DNA of 64,000 bases from an uncultured Collinsella sp. (GCA_900751755.1 CAADSP010000075.1:13916-77915), one strand, 5' to 3'. Positions 7,213 through 54,073 are shown, numbered from the stretch's first letter. Program-made: numbers and translations. Notes: generated from the letters alone by a model not told the origin.

Positions 7213-8073
7213 ATGAAGCTGAAGAAGCTTGGCGCATTTGCCGCCACGGGTGCTATGGCGCTCGCCCTTGCTCTGACGGGCTGCGGCTCGTCCAACGCCA
7301 CCTCTGGTTCTGATGCCAGTTCCAGCAGCTCTGACGACGCTAAGGTCGAGAAGGTCGACGGTTCCAAGGAGTACGCGCTCGTCAAGGACGGTACGCTGAC
7401 CGTCGGCACCTCTGCCGAGTACGCTCCGTTTGAGTACAAGGATGACAACGGCGATTATCAGGGCTTTGACCTTGAGCTCATCAAGGCTATCGGCGACAAG
7501 CTGGGCCTGGATGTCGAGTATGTCAACAATGACTTTGACACGCTGGTTCCGGGCGTCGCTTCGGGCGCTAAGTATGACGTCTCCATCGCGGCTATCACCG
7601 ACACGCCCGAGCGTGAGAAGGAAGTCACTTTCTCCGATTCCTACTACATGGACGATCAGGCTATCGTGACCAAGGTCGATAACACCGACATCACGGCCGA
7701 CAACTACAGCGAGAAGCTCAACAACGCCGACGCTACCATCATCGTCCAGTCTGGCTCGACCGCCGAGTCCTTTGCCCAGGAGAACTTCCCCAAGGCCAAG
7801 ATTGTCCCCTACAAGGACGCCACCGAGTGCTTCAGCGCCCTGCAGTCCGATAAGGGCGACGCCGTAGTCACCAACCGCTCCGTTGCCAGCCAGCTGACCG
7901 CCGAGCAGTTCAACACCTGCCAGACCATTAAGCAGATCAGCACCGGCGAGGAGTACGCCATCGCCATCAACCAGGGCAACACCAAGCTCAAGGACGATAT
8001 CAACCAGGCCATCAAGGACCTGACTGACAACGGTACCGTTGACGCCCTCATGGCTAAGTACAACATCAAGTAA
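7213..8073 (+). CDS. ABC transporter substrate-binding lipoprotein (polar amino acid, family 3 SBP)
   Basis: GGAAGGAG RBS. Signal peptide plus lipobox LTGCGS. SBP_bac_3-like body. Confidence 0.75.
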   Translation: MKLKKLGAFAATGAMALALALTGCGSSNATSGSDASSSSSDDAKVEKVDGSKEYALVKDGTLTVGTSAEYAPFEYKDDNGDYQGFDLELIKAIGDKLGLDVEYVNNDFDTLVPGVASGAKYDVSIAAITDTPEREKEVTFSDSYYMDDQAIVTKVDNTDITADNYSEKLNNADATIIVQSGSTAESFAQENFPKAKIVPYKDATECFSALQSDKGDAVVTNRSVASQLTAEQFNTCQTIKQISTGEEYAIAINQGNTKLKDDINQAIKDLTDNGTVDALMAKYNIK

Positions 8074-12162: not shown

Positions 12163-12435
12163 GCGTTGCCCTCTCCGGTGGGTACCAGCCTCCTGCCCAT
12201 TGTGACTATCGGTATCCAAAAATTTGCGCAAAAAATAATCTTTAGATGCGGCGAAAGTGGAGTTTGGTGACGGTTTGCGCGGAATTCGCCACCAATCGAG
12301 CATCTATTAACCCGTCCAAAAAATTACAGGTGTATATTTATACGCTGATTATTGCTGCGCCCAGATCGCAATTAAACGTGGACAGAGATGAGAAATGCTA
12401 AAACTGGGCTTAAGGTCAGGGGAGGCTATAGCTTT

Positions 12436-14997
12436 ATGAGACGAGTGAGAACACTTGGCTTGGTGGCAGCGCTTGCCGCTATCTTGGTATCGCCGCTGCC
12501 GGCGCACGCCGAAGACGCTTCGGGTGCCGTTACCTACAATGCGGGAAATGGGTATTCCTTTGAGAAGCTCTCGCATCCTACGGTAGGAACGTCGCAGCCG
12601 GATGGCATCGTCGACTACCAGGGTAACGGTGCCGTTGCCGTTCCGGGTGCCGATGGTAATACGGCCAACAACGAAGGCGATCGCGGCCAGAGCTACACTT
12701 GGGCGGCTGCGAGCTATGGTGACTGGCTTTATGTGGGCACCTGCTATGCGGCGATGGGCAACACGCTTACGCTCATGGACAGCACGCTGGGCGATTCCTT
12801 TGATGCCGAGACCATGCGCCTGACGCTGGAGGCCATGTTTAACGGCACGTTCTTCTATGGACAGCAGAAGGAGGACGGCACGGCCGACAAGGACAGCGGC
12901 GGCATCTTGGTTAAGATCAATACCAAGACCGGTGAGACCAAGCTGCTGCTCTCTGAATCGCTCAACGGCGTCGGTCCTTTGTTCCGCAATGCCGTGAGCT
13001 ATAAGGGTAAGCTCTATTTCTGCGGCAGCGTCAGGACCAATGGCGGCAAAAGCGGTCTGCCTTCTGTATACGAGATCGATCCTAAGACGGATGAGTGGAA
13101 AGTTGTCTATCAGGGCCTTTCGAGCGTGGACGATTACCGCGATGCCTACAAGCAGGGCATCTCAACCGGTATCCGCGGCATGTGCGTCCATGATGGCCAG
13201 CTCGTCATCAGCAATGTGGGTAAAGCGGGCAATGAGTTTGTGGCGACAATCCTGACGTCATCTGACCCTTCGAAGGGCCAGGCTAGCTTCACCGAGATTG
13301 CTAACTCGAAGACGCTGTTTGGCTATCCGGCGATTCGCTATCAGGACAGCATCTACGGTGGCGCCATTTGGGATATGGTTTCGTACAATGGCCATCTCTA
13401 TGCGACCATCTGCACCGGTACGCCCGAGAACGCTCCCGATGATAATTCCATGCAGTCGTTTGCCATGGTTCGTGGCGACAAGAACGCCGACGGCAGCTAT
13501 TCGTGGACTCCCATTGTTGGCGATAAGGATGCGACCGATCCAAAGTGCCGTGCAAAGTACTGCTTTGGCATCGATCCTGCCCGTACCCGTTCTGGCGCTG
13601 CCAACCTCATCGTCTACAACGACTACCTCTATATCGGTGAATACAACGACGAGGAGATTGCCCTCGAGCGCATCCTGTTCAACAAATCCAACACCGAAGA
13701 GGGCGGCAAGAGCAGCATGGGCGGCGTTGACTGCTCGTTTGTGAATGCCAATCTTGAGCAGTCGGTTAACATCTATCGCATGGACAAGGACGAGAACATG
13801 GAGCTCGTCGTTGGCGATCGCACCGACATGTTCCCCGAGGGCGGCATTTCCGGCCTGACTTCGGGCTTTGGCCGAAACGAGAACCAGTACATTTGGCGCA
13901 TGCAGAAGTTCGACGGCAAGCTGTATATCGGTACCTTTGATACCGCGAGCCTGCTTGAGCCGATCGGCCAGTTCTCCAATGGCGACATTATCGATATGAC
14001 GCCCGAGGAGTGGGACTCTCAGGTTCAGCGCCTTAGGGACCTGCTCGATCACCTGCTCGACAAGAAATCGCCTGACGACCCCATCGTTCCCGTGAACACG
14101 CTTGCGGACGATGATTCAAACGAGGCCGTCGAGGTCGATGATTCGAACGAAGCTGCCGAGGTTGATGATTCAAACGAGGCCGTCGATGTCGATGACGAGA
14201 AGACCGAGGTTGCTAAGGGCTTTGGCGATCTAAGCGATGCGCTGGAGGATGCCACGGGCGATCTTTGCGATCAGGCCTCGACGATGTCCCAGGACTTTGA
14301 GGACGACGCCGCTTATGTCCAGAAGATCGATGGCGAGATCGCGTACTTCAAGTCCTTTGCCGACCAGTATCAGGACATGCTCGATAGCTATGAGAGCCTG
14401 AAGCAGCAGTACGAGGATGCCTATGGCACCGAGCTGCCGGGCGATATTCAGGATGCGCTCGATAAGCTGCTGAGCGAGGAGAACCTCAAGAAGCTGCAGA
14501 GCGTGCTTACGTGCATGTACTACCTGCGCGATGCCGAGCGCGGCTTTGATATGTATGTGACCGAGGACGGCGTGAACTTTACGACGCTGACGACCAATGG
14601 CTTTAACGATCCGTATAACCATGGTCTGCGCACCTTTGCGGTGACCAACCAGGGTCTGTGCCTTGGTACCGCCAACCCGTTCTATGGCTGCCAGGTTTGG
14701 ATCCAGCGCAAGGAGAATTCGGAGAATCCGATTGATCCCGGTACTCCGGATCCGACGAAACCCACCAATCCTTCGCAGCCGGGTGGCGGCGATCAGCCTG
14801 GTGGCAGCCAGACGGGCGGCAACGACCAGTCGAGCAGCACCACGACCACCGTCACGACGGCCACTAAGAAGACTCCGAAGGACGGCTCGCTGCCTCACGC
14901 TGGCGACTCGACCCTCACGCTGGTCTTGGGATTGCTGGTTGCAGCTGCCGCGGTGCTTGGCATTGCCCTCGTCTTGCGCAAGCGTTCTTGTCGCTAG
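12436..14997 (+). CDS. Large cell-surface protein with a cell-wall sorting signal (LPHAG, then TM, then RKRSCR)
   Basis: Signal peptide. Repeated G-x-LY-x-G strand motifs suggest a beta-propeller. Acidic tandem repeats. Pro/Thr-rich stalk. A C-terminal sortase-type signal. Confidence 0.75.
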   Translation: MRRVRTLGLVAALAAILVSPLPAHAEDASGAVTYNAGNGYSFEKLSHPTVGTSQPDGIVDYQGNGAVAVPGADGNTANNEGDRGQSYTWAAASYGDWLYVGTCYAAMGNTLTLMDSTLGDSFDAETMRLTLEAMFNGTFFYGQQKEDGTADKDSGGILVKINTKTGETKLLLSESLNGVGPLFRNAVSYKGKLYFCGSVRTNGGKSGLPSVYEIDPKTDEWKVVYQGLSSVDDYRDAYKQGISTGIRGMCVHDGQLVISNVGKAGNEFVATILTSSDPSKGQASFTEIANSKTLFGYPAIRYQDSIYGGAIWDMVSYNGHLYATICTGTPENAPDDNSMQSFAMVRGDKNADGSYSWTPIVGDKDATDPKCRAKYCFGIDPARTRSGAANLIVYNDYLYIGEYNDEEIALERILFNKSNTEEGGKSSMGGVDCSFVNANLEQSVNIYRMDKDENMELVVGDRTDMFPEGGISGLTSGFGRNENQYIWRMQKFDGKLYIGTFDTASLLEPIGQFSNGDIIDMTPEEWDSQVQRLRDLLDHLLDKKSPDDPIVPVNTLADDDSNEAVEVDDSNEAAEVDDSNEAVDVDDEKTEVAKGFGDLSDALEDATGDLCDQASTMSQDFEDDAAYVQKIDGEIAYFKSFADQYQDMLDSYESLKQQYEDAYGTELPGDIQDALDKLLSEENLKKLQSVLTCMYYLRDAERGFDMYVTEDGVNFTTLTTNGFNDPYNHGLRTFAVTNQGLCLGTANPFYGCQVWIQRKENSENPIDPGTPDPTKPTNPSQPGGGDQPGGSQTGGNDQSSSTTTTVTTATKKTPKDGSLPHAGDSTLTLVLGLLVAAAAVLGIALVLRKRSCR
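14098..14190 (+). repeat. Three tandem 30-nt coding repeats (DDSNEAVEV units) inside the surface-protein gene
   Basis: GATGATTCAAACGAGGCCGTCGAGGTC appears three times with silent or conservative changes. Confidence 0.8.
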
Positions 14998-15419
14998 GCG
15001 CGTCCGCGCAGCTCGATGTTTTTGATATCGTCGAAGTCGATGGCGATATCCCTGAGTTTGAGCAGCTTGAATGCGGGTAACACTTCGTCGAGAATGCCCG
15101 TGCGGCTACGATAGCCGTACATATCGTAATAGGTGACGCGCACCAGGTCGCCGCGTTTGAGGCCCTCGAGCTTTTTCGAAAGCTCGAGGGCGTTTTCTTC
15201 CGTGAGTTCGCATTTGGGCTCAACAGTGATCTCTTGTTTGCGCACGAGCTCGTAGTATCCCGTGAGGGCGGCAAAGGGCATAAACTGTGCGGCACGGCCG
15301 GCGCGGACGGCGCCGTTGGCGGTGAGCTTGGGGTCGGCGGATCGACGTCTTCCCTCGGGGTCCGCTAGACGTTCAAAAGGCGTCGGTGGCCGCATCGGCT
15401 GTTGTTGGGACTTAGGCAC
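14994..15419 (-). CDS. YolD-like protein (accessory to Y-family polymerase)
   Basis: GTG start 6 nt after AGGAGG, overlapping the polymerase stop. The C-terminal region resembles YolD family proteins found downstream of uvrX/yqjW-type polymerases. Confidence 0.6.
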   Translation of the reverse strand: MPKSQQQPMRPPTPFERLADPEGRRRSADPKLTANGAVRAGRAAQFMPFAALTGYYELVRKQEITVEPKCELTEENALELSKKLEGLKRGDLVRVTYYDMYGYRSRTGILDEVLPAFKLLKLRDIAIDFDDIKNIELRGRA

Positions 15420-16989
15420 GATGTCCTCCTACCTGATCGTTGCGTTCGCGTGCGGTGGCGCCGGCGGTGAAGCTTAATCCCTTGACGAGCGCGTTCTTGC
15501 CGTACTTGCCCTTCACGGCCAGGACGGCGCGCGCCAGGTCGCGCTCGCGCTCATCGGCCTTAACATCGCTGAACAGGTCGATAGTGGCAAATTCCTCGGG
15601 CACCAGATTGCCAAATCCCAGGTTGATGCGCTTGACCGGTCGTTTGGGATCGACAGTCTGCGCCCAGAGCTCATCGAAATAGCCCATGATCTTCTTAAAC
15701 GAATTGGTGCGCTCGGGCAGCTTGCGCGAGGCGTTGGAGTGCGCAAAGAGCGCGGCATAGCCACCACGCGGCTTGCCGCCGTGTTCGCCCACAAAGATGC
15801 CGTCAATCGCCTGTGCCTCTCGCACCAAACGTCGGCGTTCGTCATCGCGCTGGACGGGCTTGGGCGCGCGGGGTGCGAGCTTGGGGCCGGCGGTTGCGGC
15901 GGGTTCGATGCTCGACGTGCTCGAACGCAAATGCCCGCATCCGTCTACATATTGCGCTGTGCCGCTGGCGTCGAGGCGGCGTATGTCGGCGCGCTCGCTC
16001 GCGTAGCCTACAAAGAGCGAGATGCTGTTGCACACCACGTGCTTATCGACTAAGTCCAGCACAGCGTTGTCGACCATCTCGCGCAACACGGTGTAGGCTT
16101 GCTCATAGGCATAACCCTTCGATAGCACTTGCCCCGTGGTTGTTGAGGTTGCCTGCGGGCGATAGGCCTGAATATCGGCGATAGTTGTCGGCTCGCGCCC
16201 AAAGGCGTGGTCGATAAGATACTCGGCATTGACGCCGAGCTCGTCGTAGAGCAGGTTTTCGTCGAGCGCCGCGACGCCCATCAGATCGTAGACGCCGTAT
16301 TTTTCGAGTCGTGCTGCCACGCCGGGCCCAATGCCCCAGATGTCGGTGATGGGGCGATGGGGCCAGATCTCCTTGCGAAAGGTCTCGTCGTCGAGTTTGC
16401 CGATGCGGCTGGGTACGTGCTTGGCGGTAATGTCGAGTGCCACCTTGGCCTGGAATAGGTTGGGGCCGATGCCAACCGTTGCCGTGATGCCGGTGCGCGC
16501 CAGGACCTCGTCGCGCAACATGCAGGCGAAGCCTTCAGCGTCGGTGTGATAGAGGTCCAGATAGGGTGTCACGTCGATAAAGCATTCGTCGATGGAGTAG
16601 ACGTGCACGTCTTGCGGACTCACGTATTCCAGATAGATACCGTAAATTTGCGCCGACACCTCCATGTAGTGCTGCATGCGCGGTATGGCCTTGATGTAGT
16701 CGATGCCGTCGGGAATTTCGAACAGACGGCAGCGATTGTGTATCCCCAGGTCCTTCATGGCCTGTGTGATGGCGAGGCAGATGGTCGTGCGCCCGCGCGA
16801 TTCGTCGGCAACGACCAGGTTGGTGGTGAGCGGGTTGAGCCCGCGGTCAACGCACTCGACGCTAGCGTAGAACGTCTTAAGGTCGATGCAGACATAGGTG
16901 TGACGCTCGTGCCCCACGCGTCCTCCCATCAAACACATGTTCTTATCGAATACATGTTCGATAATACCCGCTTGTGCGGACATCGTCAA
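15412..16989 (-). CDS. Y-family (translesion) DNA polymerase, UmuC/DinB-like
   Basis: N-terminal catalytic core motifs (YVCIDLKTFYASVE, SIDECFIDVT), 525 aa. TTG/ATG start after AAAGGGA. Confidence 0.85.
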   Translation of the reverse strand: MTMSAQAGIIEHVFDKNMCLMGGRVGHERHTYVCIDLKTFYASVECVDRGLNPLTTNLVVADESRGRTTICLAITQAMKDLGIHNRCRLFEIPDGIDYIKAIPRMQHYMEVSAQIYGIYLEYVSPQDVHVYSIDECFIDVTPYLDLYHTDAEGFACMLRDEVLARTGITATVGIGPNLFQAKVALDITAKHVPSRIGKLDDETFRKEIWPHRPITDIWGIGPGVAARLEKYGVYDLMGVAALDENLLYDELGVNAEYLIDHAFGREPTTIADIQAYRPQATSTTTGQVLSKGYAYEQAYTVLREMVDNAVLDLVDKHVVCNSISLFVGYASERADIRRLDASGTAQYVDGCGHLRSSTSSIEPAATAGPKLAPRAPKPVQRDDERRRLVREAQAIDGIFVGEHGGKPRGGYAALFAHSNASRKLPERTNSFKKIMGYFDELWAQTVDPKRPVKRINLGFGNLVPEEFATIDLFSDVKADERERDLARAVLAVKGKYGKNALVKGLSFTAGATARERNDQVGGHRA

Positions 16990-18825: not shown

Positions 18826-18857
18826 TCGCTGCTGTTAACGCATTGCGCCTTATAGCC

Positions 18858-18897
18858 AGGGCCCCGTATCCCATCGGATGCGGGCCCCTTTGCTTTG
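18858..18897. terminator. Hairpin terminator after pgi, also usable by the convergent island operon
   Basis: GGGCCCCGTATCC/GGATGCGGGCCCC stem (about 13 bp with 1 mismatch and 1 G:U) followed by TTTGCTTTG. Confidence 0.65.
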
Positions 18898-18966
18898 CCG
18901 TGGTCCCGGGGCGCACGGCCTTTGTGGAACATCGCCGGGGCGCCGCGCGCTGCGAGAACCCTGCGC

Positions 18967-20271
18967 CTAGATCTCGGCCTCCGCATGGCCTCGCTGCGCC
19001 TCGGGCAGCTCCCCGTAGAGCGGATGGTCTTCGAGCCTAAAGCGCTCGACCTGTTCGGGAGTGCGACCGCGTACAAAGAGCCACGAGCGATCGATCGGCG
19101 TCGCCATGAGCGTGCTGGGCAGCGCGTCGGCGCGGTCGGAAAACACCCGGGCACTCTCGGGATCCTGGAACGCCAGCACCAGATGCGTGTCGCAGTTGCC
19201 CATGATGGAGCGTGCGCGTGCCTCGCCATAGAGCGCATCGAGCTGGTTGGTCGACTGCAGCAGCAGCGTTGCCCAGATGTTGCGGCTTCGGATAATCGAG
19301 AGCACGTTGTCGATCTGGGGGATCTGCAGATTTGCGAAGTCATCGAGCATAAAGCGCACGGGCACGGGCAGGCTGCCGTCGGGCTGTCTATCGGCCTCGC
19401 GAATGAGGCCCATAAACGCCTGCGTAATAAAGAGGCCGGTCAGCGGATCGAGATTGCGGTCGATATCGCTCACGGTTACAAACAGGGCGCAGGGGGTGTG
19501 TCCCATGGAAGCGAAGTCCACCTGATGGTACTCACGATAGAGCTGTGCCGCACCGTCGAATCCCAGGCACATGACCTTTTCGGCAAGGATGCCGACGATG
19601 CTCGCGTGCATGCGCTCGGCATTTTGCGTAATGGCGTAGCGCCGCCATAGCGAGAGGGCATAGCTTTGGGGGTCGGTCGTGATCAGGTCGTCAAACAATC
19701 GACCCGTGGCACCGTCCTGCAGGTGCTCGATCAGCTTGATGACCGAGCTGATCGTCTGCTCGTCGGCGGGTAGCTGTTCGGTGACGTAGGCGATAAGACA
19801 CGACAGCAGGTTTGCCGCCGCATGATCCCAAAAAGGCTGGTTGTTGTCCTCGATGGGGCAGATGGCCTTTGCCACCGAGAGGATGTCCTGCTGGTTGGGC
19901 CTGCCGTCCGCCTTGCGGCGAATGTGCCTCAGGGGGTTGTAGCCGCAGCGCTCGATGCCGGGCGCAAGGGCCGGGACGGTGTTGAGGTCGGCGAAGTTGA
20001 GACATTGCACGCGGTAACCGTGGGCTGCCAGCACGGGTCCCACTTCGCGACAGAGCGTGCCTTTGGTGTCGAGCACGATGTAGCTTGCGTTCATTTGCAG
20101 CAGGTTGGGCTTGAGGACGTTTCGGGTCTTGCCGGCTCCCGAGGGGCCGATCACAAGTGCATTGTTGTTGAGTCCCGTTTGGCGGGTGTCGCAGGAAAGC
20201 GTTCGATCCTTGGCGAGGATGGTGGACGATGCGGACTCAGATGCGGCGAGGCGGCTGGCGAGGTTAGACAT
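18967..20271 (-). CDS. Soluble VirD4/TraG/TrwB-like P-loop ATPase (type IV coupling-protein ATPase domain without a membrane anchor)
   Basis: AAGGAGG RBS. Start overlaps the ClpP-like stop by 8 nt. Motif order is Walker A VIGPSGAGKT, KPNLL, SYIVLDTKG, YNPL, FWDHAAANLL, and a C-terminal TraG-D_C-like region. No TM helices. The track ORF extends into a Ser/Pro-rich false N-terminus. Confidence 0.6.
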   Translation of the reverse strand: MSNLASRLAASESASSTILAKDRTLSCDTRQTGLNNNALVIGPSGAGKTRNVLKPNLLQMNASYIVLDTKGTLCREVGPVLAAHGYRVQCLNFADLNTVPALAPGIERCGYNPLRHIRRKADGRPNQQDILSVAKAICPIEDNNQPFWDHAAANLLSCLIAYVTEQLPADEQTISSVIKLIEHLQDGATGRLFDDLITTDPQSYALSLWRRYAITQNAERMHASIVGILAEKVMCLGFDGAAQLYREYHQVDFASMGHTPCALFVTVSDIDRNLDPLTGLFITQAFMGLIREADRQPDGSLPVPVRFMLDDFANLQIPQIDNVLSIIRSRNIWATLLLQSTNQLDALYGEARARSIMGNCDTHLVLAFQDPESARVFSDRADALPSTLMATPIDRSWLFVRGRTPEQVERFRLEDHPLYGELPEAQRGHAEAEI

Positions 20272-20881
20272 GGGCGACCTCCTTGGTGGCCGAGAGGATT
20301 TCGTGGGCAAAGCCGAGCTCGACGGCGCGCTCGGCCGAAAGGTAGGTGTCTTTTGCAGTGAGGGACTGGATGCGCTTGGGCGTGAGGCCGCTGCGGTCCG
20401 AGAGGATTTGCGTGAGGATCTTGCGGGTCTGCATGAGACGCCGGCTGGTTTCCTGCAGCGCAAGTGCCGAGCCGCCTGCCCCCTGGGGGATCAGCGGGTC
20501 GTGAATCATGAGCTCTGCATGGGGCGCCATACGGCGATCGTCGCCGCCCATAAAGATCACGGCGCCCATGGACGCGGCGAATTCCAGGCAGACGGTGCGG
20601 ATGGGGCACGATGCGAGGCGCATGGCGTCATAGATCGCAAGGCCCGATCGCACGCTTCCGCCGGCGCTGGCGACAAATATGGTGATGGGGCGGCTGGGGT
20701 CGGTGGCATCGAGCAGGCGGATCTGCTGGCATAGGTCGTGGGCCATCGGGGTTTCGATGTTTCCCATGACGGAGAGCTCGCGACGGGCGAGCATCTCATC
20801 GTAAATGCTGGTGAGCGTGATACCTCGGGCGGATTCACGCATGGTGAGGGGACTGATGATGGGGGAATGATTGGTGTCCAT
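20264..20881 (-). CDS. ClpP-family (S14) serine peptidase homologue
   Basis: AAAGGAG RBS. Catalytic signature AASMGAVI (Ser), MIHDP (His), AKDTYLSAERAVELG (Asp region), 205 aa. Confidence 0.7.
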   Translation of the reverse strand: MDTNHSPIISPLTMRESARGITLTSIYDEMLARRELSVMGNIETPMAHDLCQQIRLLDATDPSRPITIFVASAGGSVRSGLAIYDAMRLASCPIRTVCLEFAASMGAVIFMGGDDRRMAPHAELMIHDPLIPQGAGGSALALQETSRRLMQTRKILTQILSDRSGLTPKRIQSLTAKDTYLSAERAVELGFAHEILSATKEVAHV

Positions 20882-20944
20882 GAGGACTCCTTTCTGTTGG
20901 TTGTGTTGTGGAATAGGATTGTTGCCCGCGGAGGGGCTGGCGGG

Positions 20945-21835
20945 CTACAGGGCTCGTCCGAGCCTGAGATCGAGCTCGGTTGTGGGGCAGGCTGCCTGTT
21001 CGTGCGGCTCGCAAGCACCAAAGGCTCCAAAGCGATGGAGCGTTGCGGCGGGCGTGGTGTAGGCGAGCCGCAGCTGATGCTCGACAGGGGCACATCCGTC
21101 ATTTTTGTAATGAGCCGCGTAGTACTGCGCGATGCTGGCGTTCATCTCGCTGCCATTGCGATGGCGCTCAAACTGGCGTCTGCAGGTCTCGATGATCTTT
21201 GCTACCGACTTGGGTGCCGTCGCGGGAACAAGGGCGAGATAGCCCTCAAATAGCTCGTTGATGCTCAGGAGGCACAGCAGATCGATCAGCGTCCTTATGG
21301 CTGCTCCCTCGGCGGAAAAGTGCGCGGTCATGCGGTTATATCGGTTGCGGTCGACGATGGCCGCATGGGGTCTTGGAGTTTTCTGCCCCGTGGTCCCGGG
21401 CTTTTGCCGCGCCTGTGTATTGAGCTCGACGTTGCAGCGCTTGAGGCCGTCCAGCGGAAGGAACAGTGCGGTGCGCAGGGTGTTCCGCTTGCTTTCGAGT
21501 TCATGACGCTCGTCGGGTTCCCATTCGAGCTTGAGTTTCGTGTCGAGCGCCGTAAGCATATGGGCTAGGCAGCCTACGGTAAGAACGTGCGAATCGTTGT
21601 CGCGTTTTGGGGCATAGGGGTCTGTCAGCTTGCGAATGTCGGGGTCGCCCATGATCTTTGTGCAGCGCTTCAGCAGTTGAGGATGGTCGGCCAAGATCGT
21701 CGCGAGCGGTAGCGACGCGTGGTTCTTGATGGTCGCGGCGGCAAAGGCGGCATCATATTCGTTTGCATATGCTCGCTCAATTCGGGCATCCAGAATGCTT
21801 TTCTTATCGCTGTCTTCAGCGTGGTGGTTTGTCAT
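20945..21835 (-). CDS. Hypothetical protein (296 aa), first gene of the island operon
   Basis: GGAGAAG RBS 5 nt before the ATG. Predicted mostly helical. No recognisable domain. A long AT-rich leader lies upstream. Confidence 0.5.
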   Translation of the reverse strand: MTNHHAEDSDKKSILDARIERAYANEYDAAFAAATIKNHASLPLATILADHPQLLKRCTKIMGDPDIRKLTDPYAPKRDNDSHVLTVGCLAHMLTALDTKLKLEWEPDERHELESKRNTLRTALFLPLDGLKRCNVELNTQARQKPGTTGQKTPRPHAAIVDRNRYNRMTAHFSAEGAAIRTLIDLLCLLSINELFEGYLALVPATAPKSVAKIIETCRRQFERHRNGSEMNASIAQYYAAHYKNDGCAPVEHQLRLAYTTPAATLHRFGAFGACEPHEQAACPTTELDLRLGRAL

Positions 21836-22324
21836 AGCTTCTCCAATCGGTTGATGTTCGTGCTGTTTGTTGATGTGTTGGTTGTCGTGAGTGATGTGCT
21901 TGCCGTGGGTGATGTGCTGACGTTGGGGTGCTATGCGGTTTTCAATGAGCCCGTGAGGCAGTTGCTGCAGGGGCGGGATGGAACGGCCCATGCAAGGCGG
22001 AAGGCATCGTGCTCAAAATCGAGACAGCAATGCCCTGGGTGCCTCACATGTGGCAGTCACCTCATTAAGTTGTCATTGCGTTTGGGGTTGTACTTTGCCG
22101 ATCTTCCTTCTCTTACACGCTAAAACTCAAACTTTATATGCTCGATCTACTTAAAACCGCAACGGCGGTCTTTTATCAACTTATATGTCGGAACGCGTCT
22201 TTGCAAGTACTTTTTTGCCTTTGTTTCAAATGGGGTGGTTTTGCAACCGTCATGCGCGCGCTGTGCGAACGTGCCCCGGCTCGGATAAGATAGTGCGCGA
22301 TAAAAACGATGCAAGGAGGCATAT

Positions 22325-23167: not shown

Positions 23168-23230
23168 AATCGCCGATAATGCATGGTTCGGGCGCCTGCT
23201 TACAGGCGCCCTTTTGTTAGGGAGGGTGCC

Positions 23231-23890
23231 GTGTCCGCATTTCCGTTCGACGCCGTTATCTTTGACATGGACGGCGTCATTGTCGATACCGAGTATTACT
23301 ACCTGGGCGAGACTGCCGCGTTTGCCAAGGAGCTTGGGCTTAATCTGACTCAAGAGGAGTTGAATGGGCAGGTCGGTACCTCGCATCAGTTCTTCCTGCA
23401 TTTGCTGGTCGATTGGTTTGAGCGCGCCGGTAAGGGGCATTTCACTGGCGAGGAAGCGTTGGCCCGTTGGGACGAGTGGGCGCATAAGCGTCCGCGCGAC
23501 TATCAGGCTTTGATTAACCCAGGCGCCGTTGATACGATTCGAGAGCTGCCGCGCCGCGGCGTTCGCGTGGCGCTTGCCAGCTCGTCGCCCATGGATAGTA
23601 TCGAGGAAGTGCTCAATGCGTGTGGGCTGTCGGATGCCTTTGAGTATGTAGTGAGCGGCGAGCAATTTAAGGAGAGCAAGCCCGAGCCCGACATTTACCT
23701 GCATGCACTGGACCTGCTGGGGCTGCCCGCGAATCGCTGCTGCTGCGTTGAGGATTCGGTACCTGGTATCACTGCCGGCAAACGCGCGGGGTTGACGGTG
23801 ATTGCCAAGCGCGAGGAGCGGTTTGGCTTTAGCCAGGATGCCGCGGATAAGATTATCGACCAGCTGCCGGAACTGCTCACGCTTTCTTAG
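23231..23890 (+). CDS. HAD-IA family hydrolase (beta-phosphoglucomutase/phosphatase-like)
   Basis: GTG start after GGAGGG. DAVIFDMDGVIVDTE motif I. Motif III CCVEDSVPGITAGKRAG. Confidence 0.8.
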   Translation: MSAFPFDAVIFDMDGVIVDTEYYYLGETAAFAKELGLNLTQEELNGQVGTSHQFFLHLLVDWFERAGKGHFTGEEALARWDEWAHKRPRDYQALINPGAVDTIRELPRRGVRVALASSSPMDSIEEVLNACGLSDAFEYVVSGEQFKESKPEPDIYLHALDLLGLPANRCCCVEDSVPGITAGKRAGLTVIAKREERFGFSQDAADKIIDQLPELLTLS

Positions 23891-53699: not shown

Positions 53700-53925
53700 C
53701 GTAAACCTCGCTATCCAGACGGCGCCATCTGCGCATCGAATCCGCATAGCGTGGACCCAATGTCCGGATAGCGCTCCCGCATTGCTGCAGACAGTCCTGT
53801 GGGTGTTTCCCACAGGCCCACCAGGTTGTTCGTGCCCGAAAAACCCAGTTCGGCGGGTTTCGCCTCCCCACGGGGTCAAAGTCTGCCGACTCGCCCGTGG
53901 CTCTTCGTGCCCGCGCCTCTATCAA
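53700..53925 (-). promoter_or_regulatory. Lysine riboswitch (L-box) in the leader of the lysA-dapA-dapB-dapH operon
   Basis: The minus-strand RNA begins GATAGAGGCGCGGGCACGAAGAGCC. It contains GGGGAGGCGAAACCCGCCGAA, CCTGGTGGG and ACTGTCTGCAG L-box hallmarks. GCGCTATCC / GGATAGCGAGG can sequester the SD. Confidence 0.65.
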
Positions 53926-54073
53926 GTGGTAAAGACCCTATCACGTTGCACTTTACCAAACAAGAGTATTCGTATATAACGTTTAAAAAATGCAGCAATA
54001 TGCTGGAAACATGTGTGCCACAATCCTGTATCACAATAAGTTGCAACAGATGTGCCTCACGAAGGGATTCTCT

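What the first reader, a model, noticed from the sequence alone, without database searches (positions are those of the whole stretch)
18826..22324. Compact island of unknown protein, ClpP-like peptidase and soluble VirD4/TraG-like ATPase, inserted between pgi and a HAD hydrolase
Three co-directional, translationally coupled genes on the minus strand:
- 20945..21835: a 296-aa protein with no recognisable domain.
- 20264..20881: a ClpP-family peptidase retaining the Ser/His/Asp signature.
- 18967..20271: a 434-aa P-loop NTPase. Its motif order (VIGPSGAGKT, KPNLL, IVLDTKG, YNPL, FWDHAAANLL) is that of VirD4/TraG/TrwB coupling-protein ATPase domains. It lacks the N-terminal membrane anchor, and no relaxase, T4SS, capsid or integrase genes sit anywhere nearby.

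The ClpP-like stop and the ATPase start overlap by 8 nt. The operon is preceded by a roughly 490-bp leader that is conspicuously AT-rich for this genome. Both flanks are core metabolic genes.

A stand-alone peptidase plus FtsK/HerA-superfamily ATPase plus orphan partner, placed as an island between housekeeping genes, is the typical architecture of anti-phage, abortive-infection or toxin-like modules. I do not recognise this particular combination as a described system.
Basis: partly seen in the sequence, partly recalled or inferred. Interest (0 to 1): 0.8.

Follow-up and report, generated by a model that had tools for sequence, protein, structure and literature searches.

The report
ClpP protease paired with soluble VirD4-like ATPase
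A strain-variable three-gene cassette in the gut bacterium Collinsella joins a ClpP-type protease to a conjugation-type (VirD4-like) ATPase that has lost its membrane anchor and its secretion system, plus a fast-evolving orphan protein. It looks like an undescribed protease-based conflict or defence module.

Summary
Three minus-strand genes sit between pgi and a Cof-type HAD gene: an orphan 296-aa protein, a ClpP-like peptidase with an intact Ser/His/Asp triad, and a 434-aa VirD4-like ATPase without a membrane anchor.

- **Host and island status.** The host is the Collinsella aerofaciens complex. Seven of 10 neighbourhood types with an identical PGI protein join pgi directly to the HAD gene.
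- **Two haplotypes.** A second haplotype keeps PGI at 99% but has the orphan at 43-45%, ClpP at 82-83% and the ATPase at 80-81%.
- **Age of the cassette.** Its synonymous divergence is 4-10 times lower than that of its flanks.
- **Spread of the pairing.** Short anchorless ATPases lie next to a ClpP in loci of 37-72% GC and never next to T4SS genes. Long anchored relatives show the opposite pattern. The two groups separate in a tree.
- **Clade-specific signatures.** The ATPase Walker B is DD rather than DE. The ClpP motif is IHDP rather than IHQP.
- **Other searches.** The orphan has no family or fold match. PADLOC, phage, plasmid and literature searches found no described system.

Best reading, by inference: an exapted coupling-protein ATPase works with a dedicated ClpP as a proteolytic conflict or defence module. 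The function is untested.

The parts
18895..22311 (.). Full extent of the variable cassette (about 3.4 kb). In cassette-free strains it is replaced by about 160 bp of unrelated spacer.
   Evidence: blastn of empty sites L101, L102, L108 and L110 against the window. Left homology ends at 18890-18894, just after the pgi terminator hairpin. Right homology resumes at 22311-22312, 13 nt before the HAD start codon. No repeated sequence stood out at the two junctions on inspection (no repeat search was run), no integrase or other mobility gene lies within 10 kb, and the window holds no tRNA.
18967..20271 (-). Soluble VirD4/TraG-like P-loop ATPase, 434 aa. It belongs to a ClpP-linked clade derived from Firmicutes-type (CD1115-family) coupling proteins.
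   Evidence: Pfam and NCBIfam hits. No TM-like segment. About 29-30% identical to 590-620-aa plasmid T4CPs that sit in T4SS clusters. Separate monophyletic group in an NJ tree. dN/dS 0.08.
20125..20148 (-). Walker A motif GPSGAGKT (Lys48).
   Evidence: Read from the sequence. GPSGxGKT is invariant in the ClpP-linked clade, against G(G/S)SGSGKT in T4SS-linked relatives.
19339..19344 (-). Walker B Asp310-Asp311. The catalytic Glu of canonical coupling proteins is replaced by Asp.
   Evidence: DD in 31 of 31 ClpP-linked ATPases, DE in 11 of 11 T4SS-linked ones.
20264..20881 (-). ClpP-family serine peptidase, 205 aa, with triad Ser104/His127/Asp178. It belongs to a distinct subfamily with an IHDP motif and a CP(I/V)xTVC motif.
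   Evidence: PF00574 E 3.9e-44, but below every NCBIfam ClpP cut-off. E 2e-32 against solved ClpPs with the triad aligned. Subfamily signatures. dN/dS 0.15.
20945..21835 (-). Orphan, fast-evolving, all-alpha 296-aa protein ('gene A'). It is the cognate partner of the ATPase.
   Evidence: No family hit. Only 27 cluster representatives among 1.84 billion proteins. AF2 model pLDDT 73.5 and pTM 0.73, with no fold match in PDB or BFVD. dN/dS 0.36, so it is a real gene. A homologue sits directly upstream of each ATPase copy in L097 and L138 and upstream of ClpP in L093.
21836..22311 (-). AT-rich leader and promoter region that belongs to the cassette.
   Evidence: GC 0.48-0.50. It lies inside the cassette boundaries. 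No Rfam family at gathering scores and no excess RNA structure (z 0.19).
21852..21917 (-). Array of four (G/A)(C/A)ACATCA repeats spaced 18, 21 and 19 nt apart, ending just before the RBS of gene A. It is a candidate operator or iteron-like regulatory site.
   Evidence: Sequence, TRF period 18 and pattern search. The divergent haplotype keeps four perfect GCACATCA copies at the same place although its coding sequence cannot be aligned.
22096..22147 (-). 52-nt leader block about 90% identical between the two haplotypes. It is probably the promoter or a regulatory element.
   Evidence: blastn and MAFFT of window against L011 and L012.

Best explanation
This is an autonomous, horizontally exchanged three-gene accessory module. 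It is not a piece of conjugation machinery.

A coupling-protein (VirD4/TraG-type, FtsK/HerA-superfamily) ATPase has lost its membrane anchor and its secretion system. It has become the obligate partner of a dedicated ClpP-family peptidase.

Proposed mechanism (inferred):
- The ring ATPase takes the role that AAA+ unfoldases (ClpX, ClpA, ClpC) play for ordinary ClpP. It recognises a protein and either feeds it into the ClpP chamber or gates that chamber.
- The fast-evolving helical protein encoded upstream is the ATPase's cognate specificity or regulatory subunit (adaptor, bait, inhibitor or substrate).
- The invariant Walker B Glu-to-Asp change suggests a slow, switch-like ATPase rather than a processive motor.

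The population behaviour points to a role in genetic conflict. The cassette is present or absent between strains, exists as two ancient haplotypes at one site, has spread recently across lineages, and is carried in mobile or defence-rich regions in other phyla. The likely role is triggered proteolysis that aborts phage infection, or that destroys incoming conjugative-element proteins which a coupling protein would naturally recognise.

Shown: gene content, strict pairing, separate clade, signature substitutions, polymorphism and purifying selection. Inferred: the physical ClpP-ATPase complex, the role of gene A and the biological target.
For: **Strict pairing**
- Among 31 non-redundant short (about 425-450 aa, no TM) ATPases from loci of 37-72% GC, 28 have a ClpP gene within 61 nt.
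- Two more are extra paralogues in clusters that contain a ClpP, and one is cut by a contig end.
- None of 11 long (about 590-690 aa as called; two shorter calls of 473 and 501 aa) relatives has a ClpP in its locus; all five whose N-termini were checked carry a TM-like segment.

**T4SS genes**
- PcfB, Maff2, VirB6, PrgI, VirB4 and the C40 peptidase flank only the long form.

**Phylogeny and co-evolved signatures**
- The two forms are separate clades.
- Walker B is DD against DE (31/31 against 11/11).
- The ClpP motif is IHDP against IHQP.
- Start and stop codons overlap or abut.

**Cognate third gene**
- Gene A homologues precede each ATPase copy in L097 and L138, which share a single ClpP.
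- In the low/mid-GC clade another small family occupies the same position. It shows weak profile similarity to gene A (hhalign probability 71%, E 3.6e-5).

**All three genes are functional**
- dN/dS is 0.36, 0.15 and 0.08 for gene A, ClpP and the ATPase.

**Accessory and conflict-like behaviour**
- Empty sites in 7 of 10 neighbourhood types with 100% identical PGI, with precise boundaries.
- A second haplotype with PGI 99% but gene A 43-45%, ClpP 82-83% and ATPase 80-81%.
- Cassette dS 0.03-0.05 against 0.17 (pgi) and 0.32 (HAD) in the same 66 genomes.
- Neighbours in distant loci include DpnII R-M plus GmrSD, AbiLi/RloB, DpdF/PsyrT-like helicases, large serine recombinases and D5-type primases.

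**Background knowledge, not tested here**
- Coupling proteins form hexameric rings and recognise T4SS substrates.
- Deregulated ClpP is lethal to bacteria, as shown by acyldepsipeptide antibiotics.
Against: - There is no experimental or structural evidence that the ATPase binds ClpP.
- The 'CLGF' tripeptide I considered as an IGF-loop analogue is not specific to the ClpP-linked clade.
- The apparent ClpP-ATPase fusion proteins are frameshifts, not true fusions.
- No toxin or effector domain is recognisable beyond ClpP itself.
- PADLOC gives only a weak mad8 hit.
- Defence-gene neighbours were seen in only a handful of loci, without a statistical control.
- In Collinsella the cassette sits among metabolic genes.
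- The low dS of the cassette is partly exposed to ascertainment bias, because the loci were chosen by ATPase similarity.
- The Walker B Asp could reduce motor activity, which fits an unfoldase role poorly.
- I could not check whether Collinsella also has a canonical clpP/clpX.
Confidence: 0.45

Rival explanations
1. Remnant or accessory of an integrative mobilisable or conjugative element. The ATPase would still work as a coupling protein that hands DNA to a T4SS encoded elsewhere. ClpP and gene A would be element cargo or regulators.
For: - The ATPase passes the NCBIfam equivalog cut-off for CD1115-family VirD4-like proteins (256.8 against 250).
- Its nearest annotated relatives are plasmid and ICE coupling proteins.
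- Some distant loci carry serine recombinases and D5-type primases, as integrative elements do.
Against: - It has no membrane anchor.
- No relaxase, T4SS gene or integrase is seen next to it in any Collinsella locus, and the window holds no tRNA.
- No T4SS gene lies beside any short ATPase in about 50 loci.
- The short form is a separate clade with an altered Walker B.
- The strict ClpP linkage is absent from true coupling proteins.
- All three genes are under purifying selection, so this is not a decaying remnant.
Confidence: 0.12
2. Toxin-antitoxin-like addiction module. Gene A would be a labile antitoxin or autoregulator (or a toxin) whose level is set by the dedicated ClpP-ATPase protease. 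The cassette would persist because its loss is harmful, with no defence role.
For: - It is a small, self-contained cassette with a fast-evolving first gene.
- A conserved array of four direct repeats overlaps the promoter and RBS region, as in autoregulated operons.
- Some distant loci are mobile-element contexts.
- It is established knowledge that antitoxins are commonly controlled by Lon or Clp proteolysis.
Against: - No recognisable toxin or antitoxin fold.
- The cassette is frequently absent from close relatives.
- Frameshifted ClpP variants are common and evidently tolerated, which argues against strong addiction.
- Known TA systems borrow host proteases rather than encode a two-gene protease.
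Confidence: 0.2
3. Non-conflict accessory proteolysis. The module would be a strain-variable quality-control or regulatory protease acting on a host substrate, for example in stress or carbohydrate metabolism given the pgi and HAD neighbours.
For: - Chromosomal location among metabolic genes in Collinsella, and next to Cof-type HAD genes again in Thermophilibacter.
- Native-like GC and GC3.
- Purifying selection.
Against: - Presence/absence polymorphism, two ancient haplotypes and a dS far below that of the flanks are atypical of metabolic regulators.
- Contexts in other taxa share no metabolic theme.
- The extreme divergence of gene A suggests an arms race or relaxed specificity.
Confidence: 0.15
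4. Phage-derived remnant. ClpP would be a prohead maturation protease and the ATPase a packaging-related enzyme of a defective prophage or satellite.
For: The ClpP-like protein hits PHROG head-maturation protease families (best 8.8e-37).
Against: - It matches cellular ClpP better and over its full length.
- No capsid, portal or terminase gene lies nearby.
- IMG/VR holds no relative of the ATPase or of gene A.
- The best phage ClpP hits are at most 36% identical.
Confidence: 0.03

Closest known systems
Type IV coupling proteins of the CD1115 family (VirD4/TraG/TrwB class; Tn1549/CTn4-type elements and Firmicutes plasmids)
   Same: - Same ATPase domain architecture (T4SS-DNA_transf, TrwB_AAD_bind, TraG-D_C).
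- Scores just above the NCBIfam cut-off.
- 28-33% identity over the whole domain.
   Different: - Lacks the roughly 110-190-residue N-terminal extension with TM segment.
- Never lies beside PcfB, VirB4, VirB6 or PrgI.
- Always lies beside ClpP.
- Walker B is DD instead of DE, and Walker A is GPSG instead of G(G/S)SG.
- Forms a separate clade.
ClpXP / ClpCP / ClpAP ATP-dependent proteases
   Same: - A ClpP-fold serine peptidase with an intact triad, encoded with a ring ATPase.
- A hexamer-on-heptamer architecture is plausible (inference).
   Different: - The partner is a RecA-fold FtsK/HerA-superfamily coupling-protein ATPase, not an AAA+ unfoldase.
- No clade-specific IGF/LGF-type docking loop was found.
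- The ClpP is a divergent subfamily (IHDP motif; below all NCBIfam ClpP cut-offs).
- The module is strain-variable rather than core.
Protease- or HerA/FtsK-class-ATPase-containing defence systems (for example IetAS, BREX BrxL, SIR2-HerA and DUF4297-HerA, MADS mad8). This list is recalled from knowledge.
   Same: - A small operon that combines a P-loop ATPase with an effector enzyme.
- Island-like, variable distribution.
- A weak PADLOC hit of the ATPase to mad8 (E 6.7e-8).
   Different: - No PADLOC model matches ClpP or gene A.
- None of the partner genes of those systems is present.
- I know of no described system that uses a ClpP-family effector with a VirD4-like ATPase, and none was found in the literature library.
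ClpP-like prohead maturation proteases of tailed phages (MEROPS S14 relatives)
   Same: Same fold family, with significant PHROG hits.
   Different: - Full-length cellular-type ClpP.
- No capsid, scaffold, portal or terminase context.
- Absent from the viral collections searched.

Membership tests
Type IV coupling protein (VirD4/TraG/TrwB; NCBIfam NF045973 CD1115 family) | ATPase domain matches the family HMM above its curated cut-off | tested here: met
   256.8 bits against a cut-off of 250. Pfam PF02534 2.1e-32, PF12696 and PF10412.
Type IV coupling protein (VirD4/TraG/TrwB; NCBIfam NF045973 CD1115 family) | N-terminal transmembrane anchor that docks the hexamer at the secretion channel | tested here: not met
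   No hydrophobic segment in the 434-aa protein. The ATPase domain starts within about 20-30 residues of the N-terminus. The five long relatives checked have TM-like segments within residues 21-164, and the ATPase domain starts at about residue 110-190 in ten of the eleven.
Type IV coupling protein (VirD4/TraG/TrwB; NCBIfam NF045973 CD1115 family) | Encoded with a relaxase and/or T4SS (VirB4, VirB6, PrgI, PcfB) | tested here: not met
   None within +/-10 kb in Collinsella. None beside any short ATPase in the metagenome set, while every long form whose contig extends far enough has them.
Type IV coupling protein (VirD4/TraG/TrwB; NCBIfam NF045973 CD1115 family) | Canonical Walker B Asp-Glu | tested here: not met
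   Asp310-Asp311. DD in 31 of 31 ClpP-linked members against DE in 11 of 11 T4SS-linked ones.
ClpP family peptidase (Pfam PF00574, MEROPS S14) | ClpP fold match and Ser-His-Asp triad | tested here: met
   PF00574 3.9e-44 over profile positions 6-180 of 182. Ser104, His127 and Asp178 align with the triad of solved ClpPs and are conserved across the subfamily.
Housekeeping ClpP (equivalog TIGR00493 / NF001368) | Score above the equivalog or subfamily cut-off; core gene working with ClpX/A/C | tested here: not met
   122 bits against a cut-off of 308.6, and 149.6 against 249. The gene is absent from many strains with identical PGI. The partnership with ClpX or ClpC could not be tested.
Phage prohead maturation protease | Located in a head-morphogenesis module (portal, scaffold, capsid, terminase) | tested here: not met
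   PHROG hits exist, but no such genes are nearby and the viral collections hold no relatives of its partners.
Known anti-phage defence systems (PADLOC-DB v2.0.0, including PDC and HEC candidates) | Component proteins match the models of a system and co-occur as that system requires | tested here: not met
   Only a weak mad8 hit for the ATPase (E 6.7e-8). Nothing for ClpP or gene A. No other MADS genes are present.
Defence or conflict islet (operational definition) | Strain-variable presence at a conserved site, multiple divergent alleles, evidence of horizontal exchange, association with other defence or mobile genes | tested here: met
   - Empty and occupied sites.
- A second haplotype.
- Cassette dS far below flank dS.
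- R-M, GmrSD, AbiL, recombinase and primase neighbours in distant loci.
- The neighbour association was not tested statistically.
Defence system (functional definition) | Protects against phage or foreign DNA | not testable with these tools
   Requires phage-challenge or conjugation assays.

The most novel reading that the evidence does not exclude
The module is the first example of a ClpP protease driven or gated by a non-AAA+, FtsK/HerA-superfamily ring ATPase derived from a conjugative coupling protein. It would work as an immune system. The soluble coupling-protein homologue keeps its ancestral ability to recognise proteins of invading elements (relaxases, other T4SS substrates or phage proteins). 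It would then either feed them to ClpP or unleash ClpP on the cell (abortive infection). The hypervariable gene A product would set the specificity.
Probability: 0.25. Interest if true: 0.9.

Novelty: new variant of a known kind. Interest (0 to 1): 0.72.

Why it matters
- **A new kind of Clp protease.** ClpP is known to work with AAA+ partners. An obligate pairing with a coupling-protein-type ATPase, found from Coriobacteriia to low-GC lineages, would widen the known architectures of ATP-dependent proteases. It would also show a new fate for conjugation genes, namely exaptation.
- **Relevance to the gut microbiome.** The cassette is strain-variable in Collinsella aerofaciens, one of the most prevalent human gut Actinobacteria. 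It may therefore affect phage susceptibility or uptake of the abundant Tn1549/CTn4-type conjugative elements in the gut.
- **Testable handles.** The cassette has clean boundaries, natural empty-site strains, two natural haplotypes, and diagnostic residues to mutate (ClpP S104; ATPase K48, D310 and D311).

Tried and rejected
1. **IGF-loop analogue.** The conserved 'CLGF' in the ATPase looked like the ClpX IGF loop. The equivalent position is hydrophobic-x-F in T4SS-linked coupling proteins too, and it is not LGF in the low-GC ClpP-linked clade. Rejected.
2. **Rosetta-stone fusions.** The 637-aa 'ClpP+VirD4' proteins (P0121, P0122) are frameshifts inside clpP that read into the alternative frame. 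The gene A-ClpP 'fusions' (P0013, P0030) and the internally duplicated gene A protein P0001 do not read as true domain fusions and look like assembly or deletion artefacts.
3. **Gene A related to PcfB**, the small protein encoded upstream of true CD1115 coupling proteins. hhalign probability is 0.1%.
5. **RNA element in the leader.** No Rfam family at gathering scores and no excess structure. The promoter and terminator scans were uninformative.
6. **Species-level genome survey.** The genome-contig scan returned only near-identical Collinsella loci, because GTDB splits the genus into many species. It gave the host identity but no diversity. Diversity came from the metagenome scan, seeded with a divergent member.
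7. **Compositional foreignness.** GC and GC3 lie within the range of the flanks.
8. **Prophage origin.** No IMG/VR relatives.
9. **Literature.** Searches for CD1115 and for ClpP with VirD4 or TraG and defence found nothing relevant.

Full report
**1. What is there**

- **Gene A** (20945-21835, 296 aa) matches nothing in Pfam, NCBIfam, PADLOC or PHROGs.
- **The second gene** (20264-20881, 205 aa) is a full-length ClpP-family peptidase (PF00574, 3.9e-44). Its triad is Ser104, His127 and Asp178. It matches solved ClpPs at E about 2e-32, but it falls far below every curated NCBIfam ClpP cut-off.
- **The third gene** (18967-20271, 434 aa) carries the three Pfam domains of type IV coupling proteins. 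It just passes NCBIfam NF045973, 'VirD4-like conjugal transfer protein, CD1115 family' (256.8 against 250 bits).
  - Its Walker A is G42-T49 and its Walker B is D310-D311.
  - It has no hydrophobic segment.
- clpP and the ATPase gene overlap by 8 nt. Gene A and clpP are separated by 63 nt.
- The 489-bp leader has GC 0.48-0.50, against 0.59 for the window.
- Homologue alignments show that gene A starts at the MTNHH Met, not at the upstream ATG that many gene callers use.

**2. Host and local context**

- Record titles of identical loci name Collinsella aerofaciens and many 'Collinsella sp.' genomes.
- Within +/-10 kb the genes are metabolic or housekeeping: PfkB, SIS, amidohydrolase, DcuC, GntR, two HAD genes, pgi, a Y-family polymerase, an HMA protein, flavodoxin and an ABC transporter.
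- No integrase, relaxase, T4SS or capsid gene is present, and the window has no tRNA.

**3. Island test**

- I looked up contigs that encode exactly the window's PGI protein. Seven of 10 distinct neighbourhood types join pgi directly to the first HAD gene. One of these is the complete chromosome AP031421.1.
- Three of the 10 carry the trio. One of these is CP084004.1, and another has an IS inserted next to the trio.
- Aligning empty and occupied sites puts the cassette at about 18895-22311. It starts directly after the pgi terminator hairpin and ends 13 nt before the HAD start codon. In empty alleles it is replaced by about 160 bp of unrelated spacer. No repeated sequence stood out at the junctions on inspection.
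- The same intergenic site variably holds a 224-aa deoC-like gene, on either side of the trio. It is therefore a hot spot for variable cargo.

**4. Two haplotypes and recent spread**

- Loci L011 and L012 have PGI 99%, HAD1 95-97% and the polymerase 93% identical to the window. Their gene A, ClpP and ATPase are only 43-45%, 82-83% and 80-81% identical.
- I then compared 66 genomes that carry the window-type haplotype.
  - Mean pairwise dS is 0.032 for gene A, 0.048 for clpP and 0.031 for the ATPase gene.
  - In the same genomes dS is 0.167 for pgi and 0.318 for HAD1.
  - dN/dS is 0.36, 0.15 and 0.08 for the three cassette genes.
- All three genes are therefore under purifying selection, gene A least so.
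- The cassette is much younger than its flanks, which means it has moved between Collinsella lineages.
- Caveat: these loci were retrieved by ATPase similarity, which biases cassette divergence downward. Vertical inheritance would still predict equally similar flanks, and that is not what is seen.
- GC and GC3 of the trio are native-like, so the exchange is probably among relatives.

**5. The module outside Collinsella**

- **Thermophilibacter (L093).** The order is gene A-like, ClpP, ATPase.
- **Another Coriobacteriia genome (L097, and likewise L138).** There are two [gene A-like + ATPase] pairs and one ClpP. This links each ATPase to its own gene A and makes ClpP the shared component.
- **Metagenome scan.** I seeded it with a divergent member and it returned 80 loci. 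Local HMM analysis split them cleanly.
  - ATPases of about 425-450 aa without a TM segment lie beside a ClpP gene, at a distance of 61 nt or less, in loci of 37-72% GC. The only exceptions are extra paralogues and contig edges. They never lie beside T4SS genes.
  - ATPases called at about 590-690 aa (two shorter calls of 473 and 501 aa), with a TM-like N-terminal segment in all five checked, never have a ClpP in the locus. Where the contig extends far enough, they have PcfB, Maff2, VirB6, PrgI, VirB4 and a C40 peptidase.
  - A midpoint-rooted NJ tree separates the two groups.
- **Annotated plasmid relatives** (about 29-30% identity) are 600-620-aa coupling proteins inside T4SS clusters without ClpP.
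- **Active-site signatures.**
  - The catalytic Walker B pair is DD in 31 of 31 ClpP-linked ATPases and DE in 11 of 11 T4SS-linked ones.
  - The module's ClpPs have IHDP instead of the canonical IHQP, in all but the most basal member. They also share a conserved CP(I/V)xTVC motif and a two-residue deletion.
- **Third gene in the low/mid-GC clade.** A different small family (110-260 aa, 8 loci) takes gene A's place upstream of ClpP. Its N-terminal part shows weak profile similarity to gene A (hhalign 71%, E 3.6e-5).
- **Collections with no hit.** No relative of the ATPase or gene A is in IMG/VR. PLSDB plasmids and INPHARED phages contain only canonical ClpPs at 36% identity or less.

**6. Gene A**

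- Its family is tiny: 27 cluster representatives among 1.84 billion proteins, and only five of them are full-length divergent members.
- With those members in the alignment, AF2 gives an all-alpha globular model (pLDDT 73.5, pTM 0.73). The C-terminal helix is conserved (the ELxRRL motif) and sits on a low-confidence linker.

**7. Regulatory region**

- The two haplotypes share a 52-nt block (22096-22147, about 90% identity).
- Directly upstream of the RBS they also share an array of four (G/A)(C/A)ACATCA repeats about 18-21 nt apart (21852-21917). This holds although the adjacent coding sequence cannot be aligned.
- The spacing is about two helical turns, which suggests a DNA-binding regulator. 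This is inference.
- No Rfam family and no excess RNA structure were found.

**8. Neighbours in distant loci**

- These include a DpnII-type R-M system plus GmrSD (L143), AbiLi plus RloB (L152) and DnaB-like and DEAD/DpdF/PsyrT-like helicases.
- They also include three large serine recombinases and D5-type primases.
- This fits carriage on integrative elements or defence islands. The sample is small and has no control.

**9. Interpretation**

- **Firmly shown.**
  - An anchorless clade of coupling-protein ATPases has left conjugation and become the obligate genomic partner of a specialised ClpP, together with a rapidly diverging third protein.
  - In Collinsella the cassette behaves like an exchangeable accessory islet.
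- **Most economical mechanism (inference).** It is an ATP-dependent or ATP-gated proteolytic machine. The ring ATPase replaces the AAA+ partner, and gene A provides specificity or control.
- **Walker B.** The Glu-to-Asp change hints at a slow, switch-like ATPase.
- **Biological role.** The population genetics favour genetic conflict: defence against phage or conjugative elements, or addiction. There is no direct evidence.
- **Rivals.**
  - A mobilisation coupling protein. This is disfavoured by the missing anchor, the missing T4SS and relaxase, and the altered Walker B.
  - A TA-like addiction module, which is possible.
  - An accessory housekeeping protease. This is disfavoured by the polymorphism and the sign of horizontal transfer.
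  - A prophage remnant, which is largely refuted.

**10. Novelty**

- PADLOC v2 (2023) has no model for ClpP or gene A and gives only a weak mad8 hit for the ATPase.
- Full-text searches found no paper describing a ClpP plus VirD4/TraG-like module.
- NCBI annotation currently calls the ATPase a conjugal transfer protein, which the context contradicts.
- I rate the module a new variant of a known kind: a ClpP-based protease or candidate defence module with an unprecedented partner. If the ClpP-ATPase complex and an immune role are confirmed, it would be categorically new.

Noticed in passing
window 53761-53929 (-): Lysine riboswitch (Rfam RF00168, 82 bits, full length). It is the only Rfam hit at gathering score in the window.
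   Followed up: no
window 12388-14997 (+): An 869-aa secreted protein with a signal-peptide-like N-terminus, an acidic repeat region and a C-terminal LPHAG motif followed by a TM segment and a basic tail (sortase-anchor type). No Pfam family is recorded for it. It is present in some strains (window, L105, L107) and absent from others with identical PGI (L101-L104, L106, L108-L110). It is a second presence/absence polymorphism about 4 kb from the cassette.
   Followed up: partly
window 22312-22324 region; L002 6988-7662; L012 12856-13530: A 224-aa deoC/aldolase-like gene is variably inserted in the same pgi-HAD intergenic hot spot in 28 of the roughly 100 Collinsella loci fetched. In window-type loci it lies between the HAD gene and gene A. 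In the second haplotype (L012) it lies between the ATPase gene and pgi. The two haplotypes may therefore be independent insertions.
   Followed up: partly
window 23183-23890 (+): The second HAD hydrolase gene has two deeply divergent alleles among strains, 69-70% against 95-100% protein identity. The adjacent first HAD gene stays at 95% or more. The whole region looks recombination-prone.
   Followed up: no
window 14994-16989 (-): A Y-family DNA polymerase gene (IMS domain, 525 aa) overlaps by 8 nt a conserved 141-aa gene with no Pfam family. This is the same kind of start/stop overlap as the clpP-ATPase pair.
   Followed up: no
proteins P0121 and P0122 (window-type clpP and ATPase genes): 637-aa 'ClpP-VirD4' proteins are clpP frameshifts that read into the alternative frame upstream of the ATPase start. 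One of the two clusters holds 47 member sequences. Either a clpP-inactivated lineage circulates or there is a recurrent sequencing error.
   Followed up: partly
L095 4501-12044: In one Coriobacteriia lineage the module is expanded. The order is ClpP, a 269-aa protein, a 102-aa ATPase fragment, proteins of 115, 369 and 638 aa, a full ATPase, and a 262-aa protein. The 269-aa and 262-aa proteins are paralogues of each other and are not recognisably related to gene A.
   Followed up: partly
L141 4505-6388; L143 5038-6162; L151 4180-6537: In three low-GC loci a helicase lies within a few kb of the ClpP-ATPase pair. It is DnaB_C-like in L141 and L143 and DEAD/DpdF-like in L151. The three proteins cluster together by sequence and may be a fourth component in that clade.
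   Followed up: no
L101-L104, L106-L110 about 7226-7801 (upstream of pgi): A short Fe-ADH fragment gene (174-191 aa) lies upstream of pgi in all empty-site strains and in two of the three trio-carrying neighbourhood types (L107, L109). It is absent from the window-type arrangement and from L105. L012 has the full-length 394-aa gene plus a glycerol-3-phosphate-dehydrogenase-like cluster.
   Followed up: no
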